A stretch of 64,000 nucleotides of DNA, taken from Phallusia mammillata (lineage: Eukaryota). The position numbers are program-made. The number at the start of each line of letters is the position of its first letter. Within the stretch, counting starts at the first letter, position 1. The stretch covers positions 8,370,001 through 8,434,000 of the forward strand of contig OZ281496.1 of NCBI GenBank assembly GCA_965637545.1, given 5' to 3'. Shown in pieces: positions 24,001 through 48,000 of this stretch.

Positions 24001-27000
24001 TTGCCTCATGCTGTATTTTGCACAATGTGTGTGAAAAAGCTAGAAGTCCCATCCCGGAGACCAATAGATCAGCGACACAAGGTGGTTTTTCTCAACCAGC
24101 AACTAGGATTTTTCAAAATGACTCCACAGAAGGCCGGGAGGTCCGTGAAGCTTTAAAACGTTTTGTTGTTAATAACCTTCCTCTGCGTAAGTCATCACGC
24201 TTTCTTTAAAATTGTATACATGCATTACAAGATCTAACTGTGTTTGTCACTTTTTATTTTCAAGAACACCAGCTAGTTTTAAAAACAATTCTTTGGTCAG
24301 CTGGCGGTCCTTTTCTGCCTCTTGCCTGAAAGCATCTATCATTTTAGAGACAGAGTCCTCATGTTCTGTACAAAATAAACTCCTTACTTGCTTGGGACTG
24401 TTCTTAAAAATGACAAATTGAAACCAATATATACATATTCAGTTTTGTAGAATAGGACTTTTTAAACCAGAAACTTACTACGCTTTCTAGTTGTTTTGGG
24501 ATTTGGGTCACTACTATCACTGGGTATACTGCACCCAGATGTGTCTGATGTAGATGCAGCTTCATCACTGGGTTCCAGTACTATAACTGCAAAAAAATGG
24601 GGAACAATATTGTGGGATGCTTATCACAGATTAGCCCAACAACACTAGCTACCTTCTTCTGCTGACTCGCTTGTATCATCTACTAAGCCAAATAACATTT
24701 AGTTTTTGTGAGATAACAACTTATTGCACTTGTAATACACACCATTTGTAAAGTCTATCTCTTCAGGCTCATAGCTGGAGTCAATTCCCTGACTATCATT
24801 CATAGCCTAAAATAAGACTGATTTATAATTAAACTACTACCTTAAAATGTTTCAATTTGTGACTAAACAACTTTCTCAAACAACACATCCTGACTTTTAT
24901 ATCACCTGGGCTCTTGGTCTTGACCCTAGTAAAAGGTTCATTTGATTGTAATGGGCCCATCTACTGGCATAAGCTGAGGACCCAGATACTGACAATTCCC
25001 TCTTCTTTTTATAATATAACCTCTTCAAGTTTTTCCATTTTTCTCATACCTGTTCACTGCACAACGAAAAAATTACTTGTAAGTGTTATTGCAAAAATTT
25101 ATCTATATTTGCAAAAATAGTTATATGTAAGTGATATTGCAAAAATTTATCTACACAACATGATCTCTACATTAAAGAAATATTGAAGCCGTATATGATA
25201 TTACACACCAATTATACACAATTTTGTCAAGAGATTTGACTTACCATGTAAAACAGACACCTTTTTCGGCCAACGTTGCTGAGACAGACTTAAAAATGGT
25301 GGCATTTCTTTGAGTTTTTCCATCAATTAATGGTAAAATGCCTTTGTCGTGAATTACAGCCAATAGCTCGTTTACATCAGACTCACTCCACAAAGTGGGT
25401 GACTTTCTTGGCTTCGCCATAGTTTTAACCCGACTGCTAACCAACCTCTGTCAACCGAGTTCGCCGAACACACCAGCGAGCACGCAAAATCAGTCAAGCG
25501 GAAAGTGATTCAGCAAAATATCTAGTTACCGGGTTATGAGTCGCGTTCGGAACCCACTTAAATGATCATGTAAAAAGGCTTAGTGATACAGGTGCGGCAC
25601 ACATTTGGCATTTCTATGTAAAGCAACAAATAGTTCAGAGTGTTTGTCGTAGGGCTATGAGCAAATCAATTCAATAGTGTAACTTTAAATTAAATTGCAA
25701 ACGATGTGCTTAAAAACGTTAGCTATATTTTTTACCATACTCGAAGAGTATTGGTTAGTGCACGCGGGCAGAATTAAATGGAGGCATCAAACACGCGACG
25801 ACACTGTATACAATATATTGATCCGGTTTAAATCGCCTGCATTGTTTTACGAGGTTTGCGATGGTTTGAGCGGGAAGCCTATATAGGACACAGTGTGTTC
25901 TAAAGCAGGGCTTCTCAAACTGTGGGTCGCGACCCCAATTGGGGTCGCGAAACATTTTGCGTTATTATGTCAGTCACAATAAATGGTATACGTGCGTACA
26001 TTTATTGTTTACACATCATTCCCGTGTAGAGGCTATACCAGGGGTGCACAACCTTGCGGCCGTACCATATAGATACTACATATGTGGTATCTATGGTCGT
26101 ACAGAGACGAGTTTATTAGAATATATGTACTGGCGGCCGTGACGTAAATAAAAACTCTTTTGCCAACCAGCCATTCATTGCAGTATTTGGCAGTGTAGAA
26201 GAAGTCAAGAAAATCTGCCTTTGTTGTGAAAAACAACCACTGATAGAAGTGAAAAGCTTACCACAGACATATATTGCTTTGTTTGCATACTACTACTATG
26301 TGTTTAACTACAAATATTGTCCTTATGTTCATTTGGCCCTTCAGTTTCTTCAAACCTGTTGGTTTGGTACCCAAACATCAGGTGTTAATGATTCAGTCAA
26401 AGAATTGGTGATGAAAATAAACTGTTTAATGCTTTGCAGTGTTTGCTTTGACAGTTGCCTGTTTGTTTGTTTGTTTGTTTTTTCTTTTCTTTCAGCACTG
26501 TTCTTTTTAATACACATTTTGCTATATTTGTGTAGTGAAAGGTGGATAGAACCCAATTTTATTTGGGTAATCTTTACCCAACAAAGTTGGGTGTCCCCAC
26601 GAATGTACCCAGAACATTAAATAAGGTACAAACCACAGCTACCCAATATAGCGTTTGGGTGGAAAATCATCATACCCAAAAACGAAAATTGGGTAAGTAA
26701 GTATGATACCCAAGTTGGTTTGGGTATCAATCACCCAAAAAAATATATTGGGTGTCCCCACGAATGTACCCTGTTTGGCATAGAAGTACCCAATGATTTT
26801 GGGTGTTAGTTACCCAGTTTTGCTAACAGTGTAGCCACACTGCGGCACTTCAGTTTGTTAGGAACGGCAAGACGAAACAGTATGCACTGTTCGCAACTTA
26901 CTTATCATGCAAATGTTTCTTGCATTTGTATTTAGCATTTTTTGCCTATAAACATGATGCAACAATCATTTTCTCTGTAATTTAAATCAAGGCTACAATT

Positions 27001-45000: not shown

Positions 45001-48000
45001 CGTGTTTGACCTTGGCCAATGCGAAGGCCTCTATAAGGTAACAATAAAAATTTGTCAAAATATTACGTTGTTCAAATTGTAGCCTTGATTTAAATTACAG
45101 AGAAAATGATTGTTGCGTCAAGTTTATAGGCAAAAAATGCTAAATACAAATGCAAGAAACATTTGCATGATAAGTAAGTTGCGAACAGTGCATACTGTTT
45201 CGTCTTGCCGTTCCTAACAAACTGAAGTGCCGCAGTGTGGCTATACACTAGCCTATACCATCAGTGCATTGTTACGAGCTGCGTTGATGAGACTATCAGT
45301 CGAAACAATGTGAATTGTCTGCAGCTGACAATGCTTTGAACTAATCGTACATACAAAACTGCTTCCAAATTTCTATATTTTACACAATGAAAACGGAACG
45401 GTGTCGGTGTCTTTCCTGATCTGGAGATACCTAGCTCCAACCTCTGCCGTGATCCAACGCGACGTTCAAAACAAGCTCAATGTGACTTGCCTTTTTGAAG
45501 CCGGTCAACTTGTCTCGTCTTTGAACGTCCAACCTCAAGCCGGGCAAGGAAACACGAGGGGACCGAACCATTAGCTATATGTCTTATGCCACATAGCACA
45601 CAATATGCGAAACATAAACATGACACGTTTCATGCAATGACTTAATGTTGATTCAATAGTTGAATTGTTTTGGAGCGGAAATTTAGTTTGATTAATAGTG
45701 CTGACCAAACAGATACTAAAAGGCTAAAAATTACAATATTAAATTACTTTTTGTGGTTTCAAAATGTCCTCCGAAAATCTTCTGTTTATTTATTTAACAA
45801 GTAAACATTTTGCAGATCCGTTGAAATTTCATCTGAGAATACAGGATCCTTTGATGTCTCTCTAAGTATTTTCACCAATAAACATTTCAACGAAAGCTTG
45901 CCCGGGGAAGTCACTGTACCCAACTACATTTTTGCTCAAGTTCAACTTAATGAAATCTCTGCAAGCAACAATGACTTCATTGTCCAGGTGTGTTGAATAC
46001 AAAAACATGCTTTTGGTACATTTTTTTTATATAAATTTCCAAAAAAAGTAGAAATTTATGGTACAAGTCCTTTTTCTAATTTTAAACATGTCGAAGTGGT
46101 GCCTCAATGAAGTGATAATTAGGATTTATGCTGGACAAATTCTCAATGCAATTTTAAATTCAATGCAGTATTAGGTTACGTTATAGCTTCTAATTATTAC
46201 TACTTGAATTTAATCAAAATAAATCTGCACAGCTGGAAGAATGTTGGACAACCCGCGTTGAAAACTCCAGTGGTTTGCCGAACTACCTGGTTGTATAAAG
46301 CGGGTAAGCTTTGCTTATATCGGAGTAGCAGTGGGTGCTCTAGCTGTAACGTTTGTCAAAATTATTAGGTGCGTTGCGCCACCCAGTGGAAGTGAGGCTA
46401 CCGACGCGAAGATTTTGATCCGAAATTACGAAACCAACTTTGCAACGTTCAAGCTGATGAGCTTTGTGTGGACAAACTTTACCGATGCAGAACAATTTAT
46501 CTACATCCACTGCGACGTGACCGTCTGTCAAAACTCAACTGGACAATGCCCTGGACAGGTGAGTTGAGTTTGACAAAGTATCAAAGTCTTGATTTGCTAC
46601 AAACAAATATTTATTTTTTAGTGAAATGAGCTGATATATTGAGGTTAAAATACAATATTTGCTCTAAGATTATCTAATCAAAACCAAAAACATATGTATA
46701 TAAAGCTTACAGACATGTGGAGGTGTAGGACGACGATCTGTTGACAACAATGGACGCAACCAACGACTTTCTGCAGGACCAGTTTGTATCGTAAAAACTA
46801 CCAAGTATTTGCTTGTGCAAGGTAAAAACTTCCATTTTTCTTGTTATTCTATTTAATAGTGCTATATATTTCCGATATCTGTGTTAATTAAATAGTCAAT
46901 AATTATAATATAGCCTATGTGCTATGCTCTTTTATATATCTTTATATCTGAGCTAAACTCCCTATTTTCTTGCAGACACTGCAGGAGACAGAGATGAAGT
47001 AAATGAAGCAGCTGACAACATCTTCCCATTTGTGATGTATGTTCTTCTGACTGCTGTAATTATCGGAGCTGGTTACCTTGTATGGGGCAAAATTGCCCCA
47101 GATCCAATGGCGAAACAAATTCGTCCGTACATAAGATTTCACTACAGCTCAACAATGTATTGTGTATCTATTTCGATTACGCTTAACACTTCTCATTGCT
47201 AGTTTGTATTAACTTCATATTGAAATTTTTTTAGCTTCTTACAGAAAAAAATTGCAACACTTGTTTAAAAATTGAAAGTTGATGTTTGAAAAATTAATTA
47301 AGCAAATCGTTCTACGTTTTTTACAATGAATACTTTAATTAATTGCACTTAAGTGTTCGGTATTTTTTTTGAACAAATTTAACAAGCTAAGTAGCTAGTT
47401 GCTGGACCTGAAGTAATGTCAATCAACCCAAAAGCGCCTTGTTCCAATTGACCAATTGTGTATTGTGTTTGTTGTCTAGGTCTTTCCTGGTGCTTAACGT
47501 ATTGACCTGTCAATCAAACTTTTAGGCCCAAACGGGCTTCTCAAAAACGATCAGAGTTTGGGCCGGGGTTTGTACTTGTGCTTTTGGCCTCGGGCCGGGT
47601 TCAAGCTCCAGTTTAAGGCCCGTTTGCAACTCTGGAATGTACACTTGCGTTGTTTTGAATACGAACGACTTGTGTTTTACCCAGCGTTGCCTACAATTAA
47701 CAAGAATATAGAAAACGCTCGGTTAACCCAATTTCGCCTAATTATACCACCTTGCTGACCGTACATGTTGTTTTATATAGCTGACTAGTTTTCGTCACAA
47801 AGACAGTGAATTATATATTATAGCATAGCCAGTGTGTTTGTCAGCATGGGGCAGTCATATGGTGTAACGCATAAGCATTATTCGAAACCAGACCAGTTAT
47901 TCCTATTCGCAGTAGTACGTTTAAAGCAAATGTGATGAAAAAATACCTCTTAACAAATGCCTTATACATCGAAACCGTTCTTTGCAATCTTTTTTTCACA

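What the first reader, a model, noticed from the sequence alone, without database searches (positions are those of the whole stretch)
26832..45243. An 18-kb quasi-palindrome: inverted duplication with two mappable template-switch junctions
The arms are 26832-30728 and 40949-45243. At 40949 the inverted transposase (matching 38487) joins the inverted gene region (matching 30728) with only a 1-bp overlap. The left arm keeps the hAT MITE intact with both TSDs while the right arm has it truncated, so this junction is derived. The pattern (forward to 39064, jump ahead, copy backwards, jump back, keep copying backwards) fits a replication-based FoSTeS/MMBIR event or aberrant P-element transposition. 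It explains why C alone points opposite to A, B and D. A retained inverted haplotig is the main alternative because a scaffold gap lies in the middle, but the strand-switch junction is present on both sides of the gap.
[Added by the scan's program, not by the reader: the finding's places include an assembly gap (unread letters, written N; its length is only estimated) at 39513 to 39712. Whether the letters on both sides are continuous or in frame is not known: test that first.]
Basis: partly seen in the sequence, partly recalled or inferred. Interest (0 to 1): 0.65.

Follow-up and report, generated by a model that had tools for sequence, protein, structure and literature searches.

The report
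Fold-back inverted duplication of half a gene
A sea-squirt-like genome window holds a recent inverted copy of the front half of a CUB/ZP-domain gene, folded back inside a broken P-type transposon; it is a well-resolved example of a known kind of rearrangement, not a new one.

Summary
The quasi-palindrome is in the sequence at the stated coordinates: outer arms 26832-30728 / 40949-45243 (24 mismatches in 3,897 bp, 5 indels) and inner arms 38487-39064 / 40372-40949 (1 mismatch). The 1-bp joint at 40949 and the cut MITE are also confirmed.

New here:
- The 484 bases on each side of the N gap are identical and dovetail exactly. The gap is probably a contig overlap, the loop is 623 bp, and the "junction on both sides" is one junction assembled twice.
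- The arms are the 5' half (aa ~1-308) of a CUB+ZP gene. C is full length and its exons continue across 45243. B is cut in an intron at 26832.
- The P-type transposase is colinear on the minus strand (aa 162-568). The plus-strand copy stops at aa 353, and aa 569-835 are absent.

C's orientation is not explained by this event. Both transposase joints are internal, which argues against transposase-made joints. A BEL/Pao insertion (left) and a MITE insertion (right) came later.

Best reading: fold-back or template-switch repair of a break inside the transposon (about 0.6). Main rival: an assembly artefact (about 0.2), which only reads can test.

The parts
26832..30728 (-). Left outer arm = 'B', a truncated inverted copy of about 1.1 kb of upstream DNA plus the 5' half of CUB+ZP gene C. 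Exons aa 6-82 (29943-29743), 76-129 (29386-29225), 127-182 (28783-28616), 254-308 (27203-27038), gene sense on the minus strand.
   Evidence: 24 mismatches in 3,897 bp against the right arm; tblastn of P0028
26831..26832 (.). J1, a derived outer joint. The copy ends in the intron after exon aa 254-308 and abuts unrelated DNA rich in ACCCAA/TTGGGT motifs.
30156..30803 (.). 648-bp MITE with an 8-bp TSD (AATCTGAT). Intact here and cut at the position matching 30728 in the right arm.
30729..38486 (.). Segment present only on the left (7,758 bp): the MITE end, a spacer, the BEL/Pao element, and the 5' end and first ~160 codons of the P-type element. It was 1,205 bp before the retrotransposon inserted.
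31235..37782 (-). Intact BEL/Pao LTR retrotransposon. LTRs 31235-31964 and 37052-37782 (0 mismatches, 1 indel), 5-bp TSD CGCAG, ORF 32055-36962 of 1,636 aa. Inserted after the duplication.
   Evidence: P=0.011 that the LTRs are as old as the arms
38008..39081 (+). Truncated P-type transposase ORF (358 codons): THAP domain plus residues up to aa ~353, then 6 foreign codons and a stop just after J2.
38487..39064 (+). Left inner arm (transposase aa ~162-353), the copied strand.
39064..39065 (.). J2, the fold-back (strand-switch) joint. The identical copy at 39748/39749 lies in the contig overlap.
39065..40371 (-). Loop: single-copy transposase sequence (aa ~354-563) read on the minus strand. It contains the 200-N gap (39513-39712), flanked by the 484-bp dovetail 39029-39512 = 39713-40196. 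The loop is 623 bp if the flanks overlap.
   Evidence: (623 nt between 39720-39748 and 40372-40400)
40372..40949 (-). Right inner arm, native and continuous with the loop. The RNase H N-terminal domain (aa 131-246 of the ORF) spans the boundary.
40949..40950 (.). J3, a derived joint with a 1-bp overlap. Transposase position ~aa 162 is joined to an internal position of the MITE.
40949..45243 (+). Right outer arm: the parental upstream region and 5' half of gene C.
42062..47124 (+). Gene C, a full-length CUB+ZP-domain gene (aa 6-591 of P0028) that runs across the arm boundary at 45243.
41553..41879 (.). 327-bp block found only in the right arm: a MITE with ~23-nt TIRs (96% complementary) and an 8-bp TSD (CTATATAT). 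The empty site is in the left arm at about 30126-30133. Inserted after the duplication.

Best explanation
This is a real, recent, local inverted duplication made by fold-back or template-switch repair of a break inside a P-type transposon. The transposon sat about 2 kb upstream of CUB+ZP gene C.

Inferred sequence of events:
1. The native arrangement, read leftward from gene C, was: gene C 5' half, upstream DNA, MITE, spacer, then the P-type element with its 5' end nearest the gene.
2. The DNA broke, or a fork collapsed, inside the transposase gene at about codon 563-568.
3. The 3' end turned back 623 bp and primed on its own or the sister strand at about codon 353.
4. Synthesis ran back through the transposon 5' part, the MITE, the upstream DNA and the first exons of gene C.
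5. In the intron after exon aa 254-308, the new strand left the template and was joined to unrelated DNA (J1).

The result is a head-to-head pair: truncated copy B on the left, parent C on the right. The transposon's C-terminal third was lost.

The 1,205-bp skip at J3 in the parental arm is either a first template switch of the same event or a later deletion.

Afterwards a BEL/Pao retrotransposon inserted into the left side and a MITE into the right arm, and the arms accumulated 0.62% substitutions.

Shown: the structure, the three joints, which side of each joint is native, the relative ages, and the gap overlap. Inferred: the break, the fold-back chemistry, one step versus two, and that both arms lie on one chromosome.
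For: - Structure and joints.
- Polarity at J2: with the closest full-length relative (P0001, 835 aa), the plus strand 38008-39063 covers aa 1-353. The minus strand 40948-39734 covers aa 162-568 in one alignment, crossing 40372/40371 without a break. All 5 relatives tested, out of 26 found, give the same pattern. The Pfam RNase H N-terminal domain spans the boundary on the minus strand only.
- Polarity at J1: C's exons continue across 45243 in the order seen in A and D. B ends at 26832, and blastn (word size 7) and tblastx find no gene body in 12000-26831.
- Polarity at J3: the MITE with its perfect TSD is intact only on the left.
- Loss beyond the break: transposase aa 569-835 gives no tblastn hit anywhere in the window.
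- A single-copy spacer between inverted arms is the signature of fold-back duplications. All 21 sequenced human junctions had spacers of 766-70,466 bp (passages of PMC3907307). Here the spacer is 623 bp.
- Two physically distinct copies with separate histories: a private LTR element with its TSD on the left, a private MITE with its TSD and an empty site on the right, and 24 evenly spread substitutions.
- In cis: the two contig ends dovetail over 484 bp, including J2, with 0 mismatches. The chance of that for different haplotypes is 0.05 at the arm rate and 0.005 at the 1.1% reported for wild Ciona (passages of PMC6836712).
- Neighbouring paralogs A, C and D on the two contigs fit real adjacency.
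Against: - A scaffold gap lies between the two copies, and that is a listed hallmark of false duplications (passages of PMC9516828).
- 0.62% divergence is within the allelic range for ascidians, so divergence does not separate paralogs from alleles.
- No reads, depth or second genome could be examined.
- The dovetail could come from one shared read, so J2 may rest on little data.
- Inverted microhomology at J2, expected in most fold-back events, cannot be seen. The 5 residues past J2 show no real similarity to relatives (1 identity), and the native sequence beyond the break is missing.
- J1 coincides with a transposon-like subterminal motif cluster. That could mean another mechanism or a later event shaped that joint.
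- One step versus two steps is undecided: inner-arm divergence (1 in 578) does not differ from outer-arm divergence (24 in 3,897), Fisher P=0.24.
Confidence: 0.62

Rival explanations
1. Assembly artefact. The two arms are the two haplotypes of one locus (a false 'heterotype' duplication), or the ends of chimeric or fold-back reads, placed head to head at a scaffold join. No inverted duplication exists in the chromosome.
For: - The gap lies between the copies, which is a hallmark of false duplication (PMC9516828 passages).
- Arm divergence of 0.62%, with TE presence/absence differences, looks like ordinary ascidian heterozygosity.
- The 484-bp duplicated gap flanks show that the assembler or scaffolder did mishandle this spot.
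Against: - The arms are not allelic at their outer ends. Left of 26832 there is no gene body or any similarity to 45244 onward. An allelic reading therefore needs a second, independent chimeric joint 12 kb from the first.
- Each arm is embedded without Ns in its own contig.
- The dovetail of 484 bp with 0 mismatches, including J2, links left arm, loop and right arm on one haplotype (P about 0.05-0.005 otherwise).
- A missed-adapter or snap-back chimera would give identical arms. It would not give private insertions with TSDs.
Confidence: 0.2
2. Replication ran left to right through an original left arm, switched strands at 39064, copied backwards, skipped to 30728 and copied back to 26832. This makes the right arm the new copy and turns gene C round.
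For: It uses the same three joints and explains the intact MITE on the left.
Against: - The new copy would have to rejoin gene C's 3' half exactly in the homologous intron, keeping exon order aa 254-308 then 306-369.
- B would have to have lost its whole 3' half separately.
- The loop is continuous with the right inner arm, not the left.
Confidence: 0.05
3. The joints were made by a transposase through alternative transposition: hybrid-element insertion or sister-chromatid transposition by the P-type element, or by the transposon-like element that ends at 26831.
For: - Alternative transposition of Ac makes inverted duplications containing inverted transposon 5' parts (passages of bioRxiv 10.1101/2020.01.07.897926).
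- J1 abuts a motif-rich end that looks like the subterminal region of a DNA transposon.
Against: - J2 and J3 lie inside the transposase ORF (aa ~353, ~563-568 and ~162), not at termini.
- No TSD or footprint is seen at any joint.
- No partner end for the 26831 terminus exists in the window, apart from a lone 15-of-16 match at 8955 that has no TSD and no motifs.
Confidence: 0.07
4. An inversion made by staggered breaks, which leaves inverted duplications at the ends of the inverted segment (a model recalled from Drosophila inversion work, not checked here).
For: Inverted copies flank a central segment.
Against: With the arms as the staggered region, the model makes 26831/26832 ancestral and 45243/45244 novel. 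That is the opposite of what the exon continuity shows. The central segment is only the 623-bp loop.
Confidence: 0.03

Closest known systems
Fold-back inverted duplications with a single-copy spacer (human constitutional inv-dup rearrangements, Hermetz et al. 2014, PMC3907307; passages read)
   Same: Inverted arms are separated by a short unduplicated spacer. Sequence beyond the break is lost. The far end of the copy is joined to unrelated DNA.
   Different: - The scale is kilobases (arms about 5.7 kb before later changes), not megabases.
- The event is interstitial, with both ends rejoined, and shows no terminal deletion, telomere healing or dicentric stage.
- The spacer of 623 bp is just under their observed range of 766-70,466 bp.
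- Microhomology at the spacer joint could not be assessed.
- There is an extra 1,205-bp skip in the parental arm.
FoSTeS/MMBIR-type complex rearrangements
   Same: Several joints close together, a strand switch, and 1 bp of microhomology at the one joint where both partners are known.
   Different: A single event cannot be shown. A fold-back followed by a later deletion gives the same sequence.
Mu killer and 'Ac killer' loci of maize (PMC3440606, abstract start in the listing; bioRxiv 10.1101/2020.01.07.897926, passages)
   Same: A natural inverted duplication of the 5' part of a DNA-transposon transposase gene. One copy still has the element's own 5' end and start codon, so a read-through transcript would fold into a long hairpin (578-bp stem here).
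   Different: There is no expression or small-RNA evidence here. This is an animal, not a plant. The Ac cases arose by transposase-mediated alternative transposition with termini at the joints, which is not seen here.
Truncated P-element repressor proteins (66-kDa and KP; PMC7776569, passages)
   Same: The plus-strand ORF keeps the THAP DNA-binding N-terminus and lacks the catalytic C-terminal part.
   Different: The truncation comes from a rearrangement, not from splicing or an internal deletion. The event is so recent that an open frame says nothing about selection.
False heterotype duplications at assembly gaps (Ko et al. 2022, PMC9516828; passages)
   Same: Near-identical copies on one scaffold with a gap between them. 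The 484-bp duplicated gap flanks are an artefact of this general kind.
   Different: The large arms are inverted, have different outer flanks, and are linked by the dovetail. The word 'inverted' does not occur in that paper's main text.

Membership tests
Fold-back inverted duplication | Two copies of a segment in inverted orientation on one molecule | tested here: met
   The in-cis arrangement rests on the assembly and on the 484-bp dovetail.
Fold-back inverted duplication | A single-copy spacer (the loop) between the arms | tested here: met
   623 bp between 39748 and 40372 within one contig. The published range is 766-70,466 bp.
Fold-back inverted duplication | Short inverted microhomology where the spacer meets the inverted copy | not testable with these tools
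   Any microhomology would be absorbed into the arm ends. Testing it needs the native transposon sequence beyond the break, which is absent from the window. Similarity to protein relatives past J2 is nil.
Fold-back inverted duplication | Loss of the sequence distal to the break | tested here: met
   Transposase aa 569-835 gives no tblastn hit anywhere in the 64-kb window, using 5 relatives.
FoSTeS/MMBIR complex rearrangement | Joints with 0-5 bp of microhomology and no long homology | tested here: inconclusive
   J3 has 1 bp. The second native partner is unknown for J1 and J2.
FoSTeS/MMBIR complex rearrangement | All joints made in a single event | not testable with these tools
   Inner-arm and outer-arm divergence are compatible (P=0.24), but that does not exclude a later deletion.
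Transposase-mediated alternative transposition (HEI / SCT) | Rearrangement joints at element termini | tested here: not met
   J2 and J3 map to transposase codons ~353, ~563-568 and ~162.
Transposase-mediated alternative transposition (HEI / SCT) | A target-site duplication or excision footprint at the new joints | tested here: not met
   None is visible at J1-J3. There is no TSD for the 8955/26831 pair.
P-element / THAP9 transposase superfamily (the broken element) | N-terminal THAP domain, TNP-like RNase H N-terminal domain and GTP-binding insertion domain, in that order | tested here: met
   Pfam PF05485 (1.9e-10), PF21787 (1.4e-11) and PF21788 (1.9e-4; 22.2 bits, below the 24.8-bit cut-off). 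53% identity to an 835-aa relative that carries THAP and RNase H N-terminal domains.
P-element / THAP9 transposase superfamily (the broken element) | Complete catalytic C-terminal part | tested here: not met
   aa 569-835 are absent, so this copy cannot encode an active enzyme.
P-element / THAP9 transposase superfamily (the broken element) | Terminal inverted repeats with an 8-bp TSD | tested here: inconclusive
   The 3' end is lost. The 5' end was not delimited between 37788 and 38007.
False heterotype assembly duplication | A gap between the duplicated pair on one scaffold | tested here: met
False heterotype assembly duplication | Copies are allelic, that is, colinear into the same flanks | tested here: not met
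   The outer flanks are unrelated.
False heterotype assembly duplication | Half read depth and haplotype-specific k-mers | not testable with these tools
   No reads are available.
Transposon-silencing hairpin locus (Mu killer type) | Inverted duplication of part of the transposase gene downstream of a promoter | tested here: inconclusive
   The 578-bp arms (aa ~162-353) follow an intact start codon at 38008. No promoter was demonstrated.
Transposon-silencing hairpin locus (Mu killer type) | dsRNA and small RNAs from the locus, and silencing in trans | not testable with these tools
   No expression data are available.

The most novel reading that the evidence does not exclude
The fold-back created a natural 'P-killer' locus in a chordate. 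Transcription from the transposon's own 5' end (start codon 38008) would run through the 578-bp arm, the 623-nt loop and the inverted arm, giving a long hairpin RNA against the transposase. It would also encode a 358-aa THAP-only protein resembling the KP / 66-kDa repressors. The same event left a head-to-head pair of gene 5' halves that could make antisense or hairpin RNA against the CUB+ZP gene family. That would be an animal counterpart of maize Mu killer, caught soon after it formed.
Probability: 0.08. Interest if true: 0.6.

Novelty: new member of a known kind. Interest (0 to 1): 0.3.

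Why it matters
If real, this is a cleanly resolved natural fold-back duplication. All three joints are mapped to the base. The native side of each joint can be told from exon order, transposase colinearity and a MITE with its TSD. Relative dates come from a later LTR-element insertion and a later MITE insertion. Such small, young, interstitial cases show how broken transposons seed partial gene duplicates and inverted repeats in compact chordate genomes.

It also has practical value for assembly. A true palindrome centre coincides with a contig break, a 200-N gap that probably hides nothing, and 484 duplicated bases. Gene counts for the CUB+ZP family here should read three full genes plus one fragment.

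It does not open a new question, and the mechanism class is well known.

Tried and rejected
- **PDB sequence search of the two transposase ORFs.** The minus ORF gave 0 hits and the plus ORF gave only a THAP2 domain. That was too insensitive to anchor on a solved P transposase, so I used Pfam and full-length relatives instead.
- **Hidden microhomology at J2.** The 5 residues past the joint show 1 identity, so this is uninformative. The MAFFT tails were misplaced and I did not use them.
- **A TIR partner and TSD for the end at 26831.** I found one 15-of-16 match at 8955 (0 in 30 shuffles), without a TSD or subterminal motifs, and no partner for the terminal 400 bp. I left this open and did not use it.
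- **A surviving B gene body.** None was found in 12000-26831 by blastn (word size 7) or tblastx.
- **'Double-element' model (one P-type copy inserted into another).** Rejected because J2 joins two internal positions and no terminus is present.
- **Staggered-break inversion.** Rejected on exon continuity.
- **Missed-adapter palindromic read.** Rejected because of the 623-bp native loop and the private insertions in each arm.
- **Ascidian heterozygosity for Phallusia.** I found no figure for that genus and used only the Ciona value.
- **What was not scanned or searched.** Pfam was run on 60 of the 155 ORFs of at least 70 aa listed; the rest were not scanned. So the locus could not be compared with other individuals or species.
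- **Supplements were closed.** The junction sequences of PMC3907307 (Figure S1, Table S1) were not seen.
- **No spliced gene model was joined.** The gene family was searched with one exon ORF, and exons were placed by tblastn.

Full report
**1. What is there**

The window (64 kb, 38.5% G+C) has one N run, at 39513-39712.

| Arm pair | Left | Right | Difference |
|---|---|---|---|
| Outer | 26832-30728 | 40949-45243 | 24 substitutions in 3,897 bp (0.62%), plus 5 indels |
| Inner | 38487-39064 | 40372-40949 | 1 mismatch in 578 bp |

The substitutions are evenly spread (KS P=0.41). All five indels are extra sequence in the right arm.

Base-level views confirm three joints:
- **J1** = 26831/26832
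- **J2** = 39064/39065
- **J3** = 40949/40950, where 30728 and 38487 share one A

**2. The gap, tested first**

The 484 bases before the gap (39029-39512) are identical, in direct orientation, to the 484 bases after it (39713-40196). The match ends exactly at both contig ends. That is a dovetail overlap of two contigs.

- The 200 Ns most likely hide nothing, and the real sequence is about 684 bp shorter.
- The loop between the inner arms is then 623 bp, measured inside the right contig.
- Nothing below depends on crossing the gap. I put no letters into it.

**3. What the DNA encodes**

I ran Pfam on 60 of the 155 ORFs of at least 70 aa. I also mapped database relatives onto the window with tblastn.

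*The arms are half a gene, not flanking DNA.* The gene is a CUB+ZP-domain gene. Its nearest named relatives are two *Phallusia mammillata* proteins, at 87-90% identity on the ZP-C exon, so the window is very probably from an ascidian.

| Copy | Strand | Coordinates | Residues of P0028 (592 aa) |
|---|---|---|---|
| A | − | 14785-9304 | about 21-592, full length |
| C | + | 42062-47124 | 6-591, full length |
| D | − | 60019-55367 | about 33-592, full length |
| B (left arm) | − | 29943-27038 | 6-308 only, ending at 26832 in an intron |

I searched with a single exon and placed exons by tblastn. I did not build a joined spliced model.

*Between the arms lie three elements:*
- A 648-bp MITE at 30156-30803 with a perfect 8-bp TSD.
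- An intact BEL/Pao LTR retrotransposon at 31235-37782. It has a 5-bp TSD (CGCAG), LTRs with 0 mismatches in 731 bp, and a 1,636-aa ORF.
- A P-type (THAP9-like) transposase gene.

**4. Which side of each joint is native**

*J2.* Against the closest full-length relative (P0001, 835 aa, 53% identity):
- The plus strand 38008-39063 covers aa 1-353 and then stops 6 codons after J2.
- The minus strand 40948-39734 covers aa 162-568 in one unbroken alignment across 40372/40371.
- All 5 relatives tested, out of 26 found, agree.
- The Pfam RNase H N-terminal domain spans that boundary on the minus strand only.

So the loop and the right inner arm are native, and the left inner arm is the copy.

*J1.* C's consecutive exons aa 254-308 (inside the arm) and aa 306-369 (outside it) straddle 45243 in the same order as in A and D. 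B has only the inner exon. No gene body lies in 12000-26831. So 45243/45244 is ancestral and J1 is derived.

Transposase aa 569-835 occur nowhere in the window.

**5. Relative dating**

- The LTRs (0 mismatches in 731 bp) are younger than the arms (Poisson P=0.011, Fisher P=0.024). The retrotransposon therefore inserted after the duplication, and the segment skipped at J3 was 1,205 bp at the time, not 7,758 bp.
- The right arm alone carries a 327-bp MITE block with ~23-nt TIRs and an 8-bp TSD. The left arm has the empty site.
- Inner-arm and outer-arm divergence are compatible (P=0.24).

**6. Mechanism**

The anatomy is two inverted arms, a short single-copy spacer continuous with one arm, loss of the sequence beyond the spacer, and the far end of the copy joined to unrelated DNA. 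That is the anatomy of fold-back inverted duplications. In 21 of 21 sequenced human junctions a spacer of 766-70,466 bp was found, and 13 of the 18 junctions not lying in interspersed repeats had 2-8 bp of inverted microhomology (PMC3907307, passages).

My reading is:
1. A break or fork collapse occurred inside the transposase gene, near codon 563-568.
2. The end folded back 623 bp.
3. Synthesis ran back through the transposon 5' part, the MITE, the upstream DNA and exons 1-5 of gene C.
4. The new strand was joined to foreign DNA at J1.

J3 is either an earlier template switch in the same replicative event (a FoSTeS/MMBIR-type reading run right to left) or a later deletion. The sequence cannot tell which. 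Microhomology at J2 cannot be scored, because the native sequence past the break is missing (one search shows no hidden extension).

**7.

- The geometry and the derived status of J3 stand.
- The direction of copying is reversed.
- Gene C's orientation predates the event. The event explains the orientation of the B fragment instead.
- Aberrant P transposition is unlikely, because J2 and J3 are internal to the ORF and no TSD is present. Transposase-made inverted duplications in maize have element termini at their joints (bioRxiv 10.1101/2020.01.07.897926, passages).
- "hAT" is unproven for the MITEs. P elements also make 8-bp TSDs (PMC7776569, passages).

**8. Is it real?**

Against:
- A gap between duplicated copies is a hallmark of false duplication (PMC9516828, passages).
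- 0.62% divergence is within ascidian heterozygosity (1.1-1.2% in wild Ciona; PMC6836712, passages). I found no figure for Phallusia.

For:
- The arms have unrelated outer flanks, so an allelic reading needs a second chimeric joint 12 kb away.
- Each arm sits in a gap-free contig.
- Each arm has a private insertion with its own TSD.
- The dovetail of 484 bp with no mismatch, including J2, ties left arm, loop and right arm to one haplotype (P=0.05 at the arm rate, 0.005 at 1.1%).
- A contig break at a true palindrome centre is also what one would expect if palindromic reads are trimmed as suspected artefacts. That point is my inference and was not tested.

I put a real in-cis duplication at about 0.6-0.7 and an artefact at about 0.2. 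Only reads can settle it.

**9. Possible consequences (inferred, untested)**

- The left copy keeps the start codon and THAP domain, and now ends 6 codons after J2. That gives a 358-aa THAP-only ORF resembling the truncated P repressors (PMC7776569).
- A transcript from that end would form a 578-bp-stem hairpin, as at Mu killer (PMC3440606, abstract start only) and the Ac "killers".
- No expression data exist here.

**10. Verdict**

This is a confirmed structure in the assembly and a well-resolved new example of a known rearrangement class. Its polarity is corrected, and there is an assembly caveat that only reads can remove. It is of modest interest.

Noticed in passing
window 39029-39512 and 39713-40196: The two flanks of the 200-N gap are identical over 484 bp and dovetail exactly at the contig ends. 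The gap is probably spurious, and about 684 bp (one copy plus the Ns) is an assembly artefact.
   Followed up: yes
window 44902-44951 (right arm) vs left arm about 27123; exon aa 254-308 of the CUB+ZP gene: B and C share a +1 T relative to A and D, which shifts the frame. C alone has 50 extra bases, including a run of 25 C in gene sense (poly-Pro). That restores the frame (51 nt in total) but replaces the conserved SQLNDSCK motif, including a Cys. B stays frameshifted. C may be a decaying or fast-changing paralog, or the homopolymer length may be unreliable.
   Followed up: partly
window 26540-26831, and 8955-8970: The DNA abutting J1 is packed with ACCCAA/TTGGGT motifs (8 and 7 in that kilobase), like the subterminal region of a DNA transposon, and it ends exactly at the joint. 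The only inverted match to its last 16 nt is at 8955 (15 of 16; 0 in 30 shuffles). That match has no TSD and no motifs, and the pair would enclose gene A.
   Followed up: partly
window 50615-51279 and 54124-54788: A second pair of 665-bp direct repeats (99.85%), with a DUF7041 ORF (51231-52082, +) between them. It looks like a short or non-autonomous LTR element lying between genes C and D.
   Followed up: no
window 29086-29159 (-) and 42846-42919 (+): Weak Rfam tRNA hits (33.4 and 31 bits) at matching positions in an intron in both arms. ARAGORN calls none. This is probably a tRNA-derived repeat.
   Followed up: no
window 7680-7881 (-): A U3 snoRNA match over the full model (39.6 bits; gathering score 34).
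   Followed up: no
window 3-1430 (+) and 23757-24206 (+): A reverse-transcriptase ORF running off the window start, and a DDE_Tnp_4 (PIF/Harbinger-type) transposase fragment about 2.6 kb left of J1.
   Followed up: no
window 19837-19999: A 163-bp near-palindrome that matches its own reverse complement at 84%. It may be a small MITE or a hairpin repeat.
   Followed up: no
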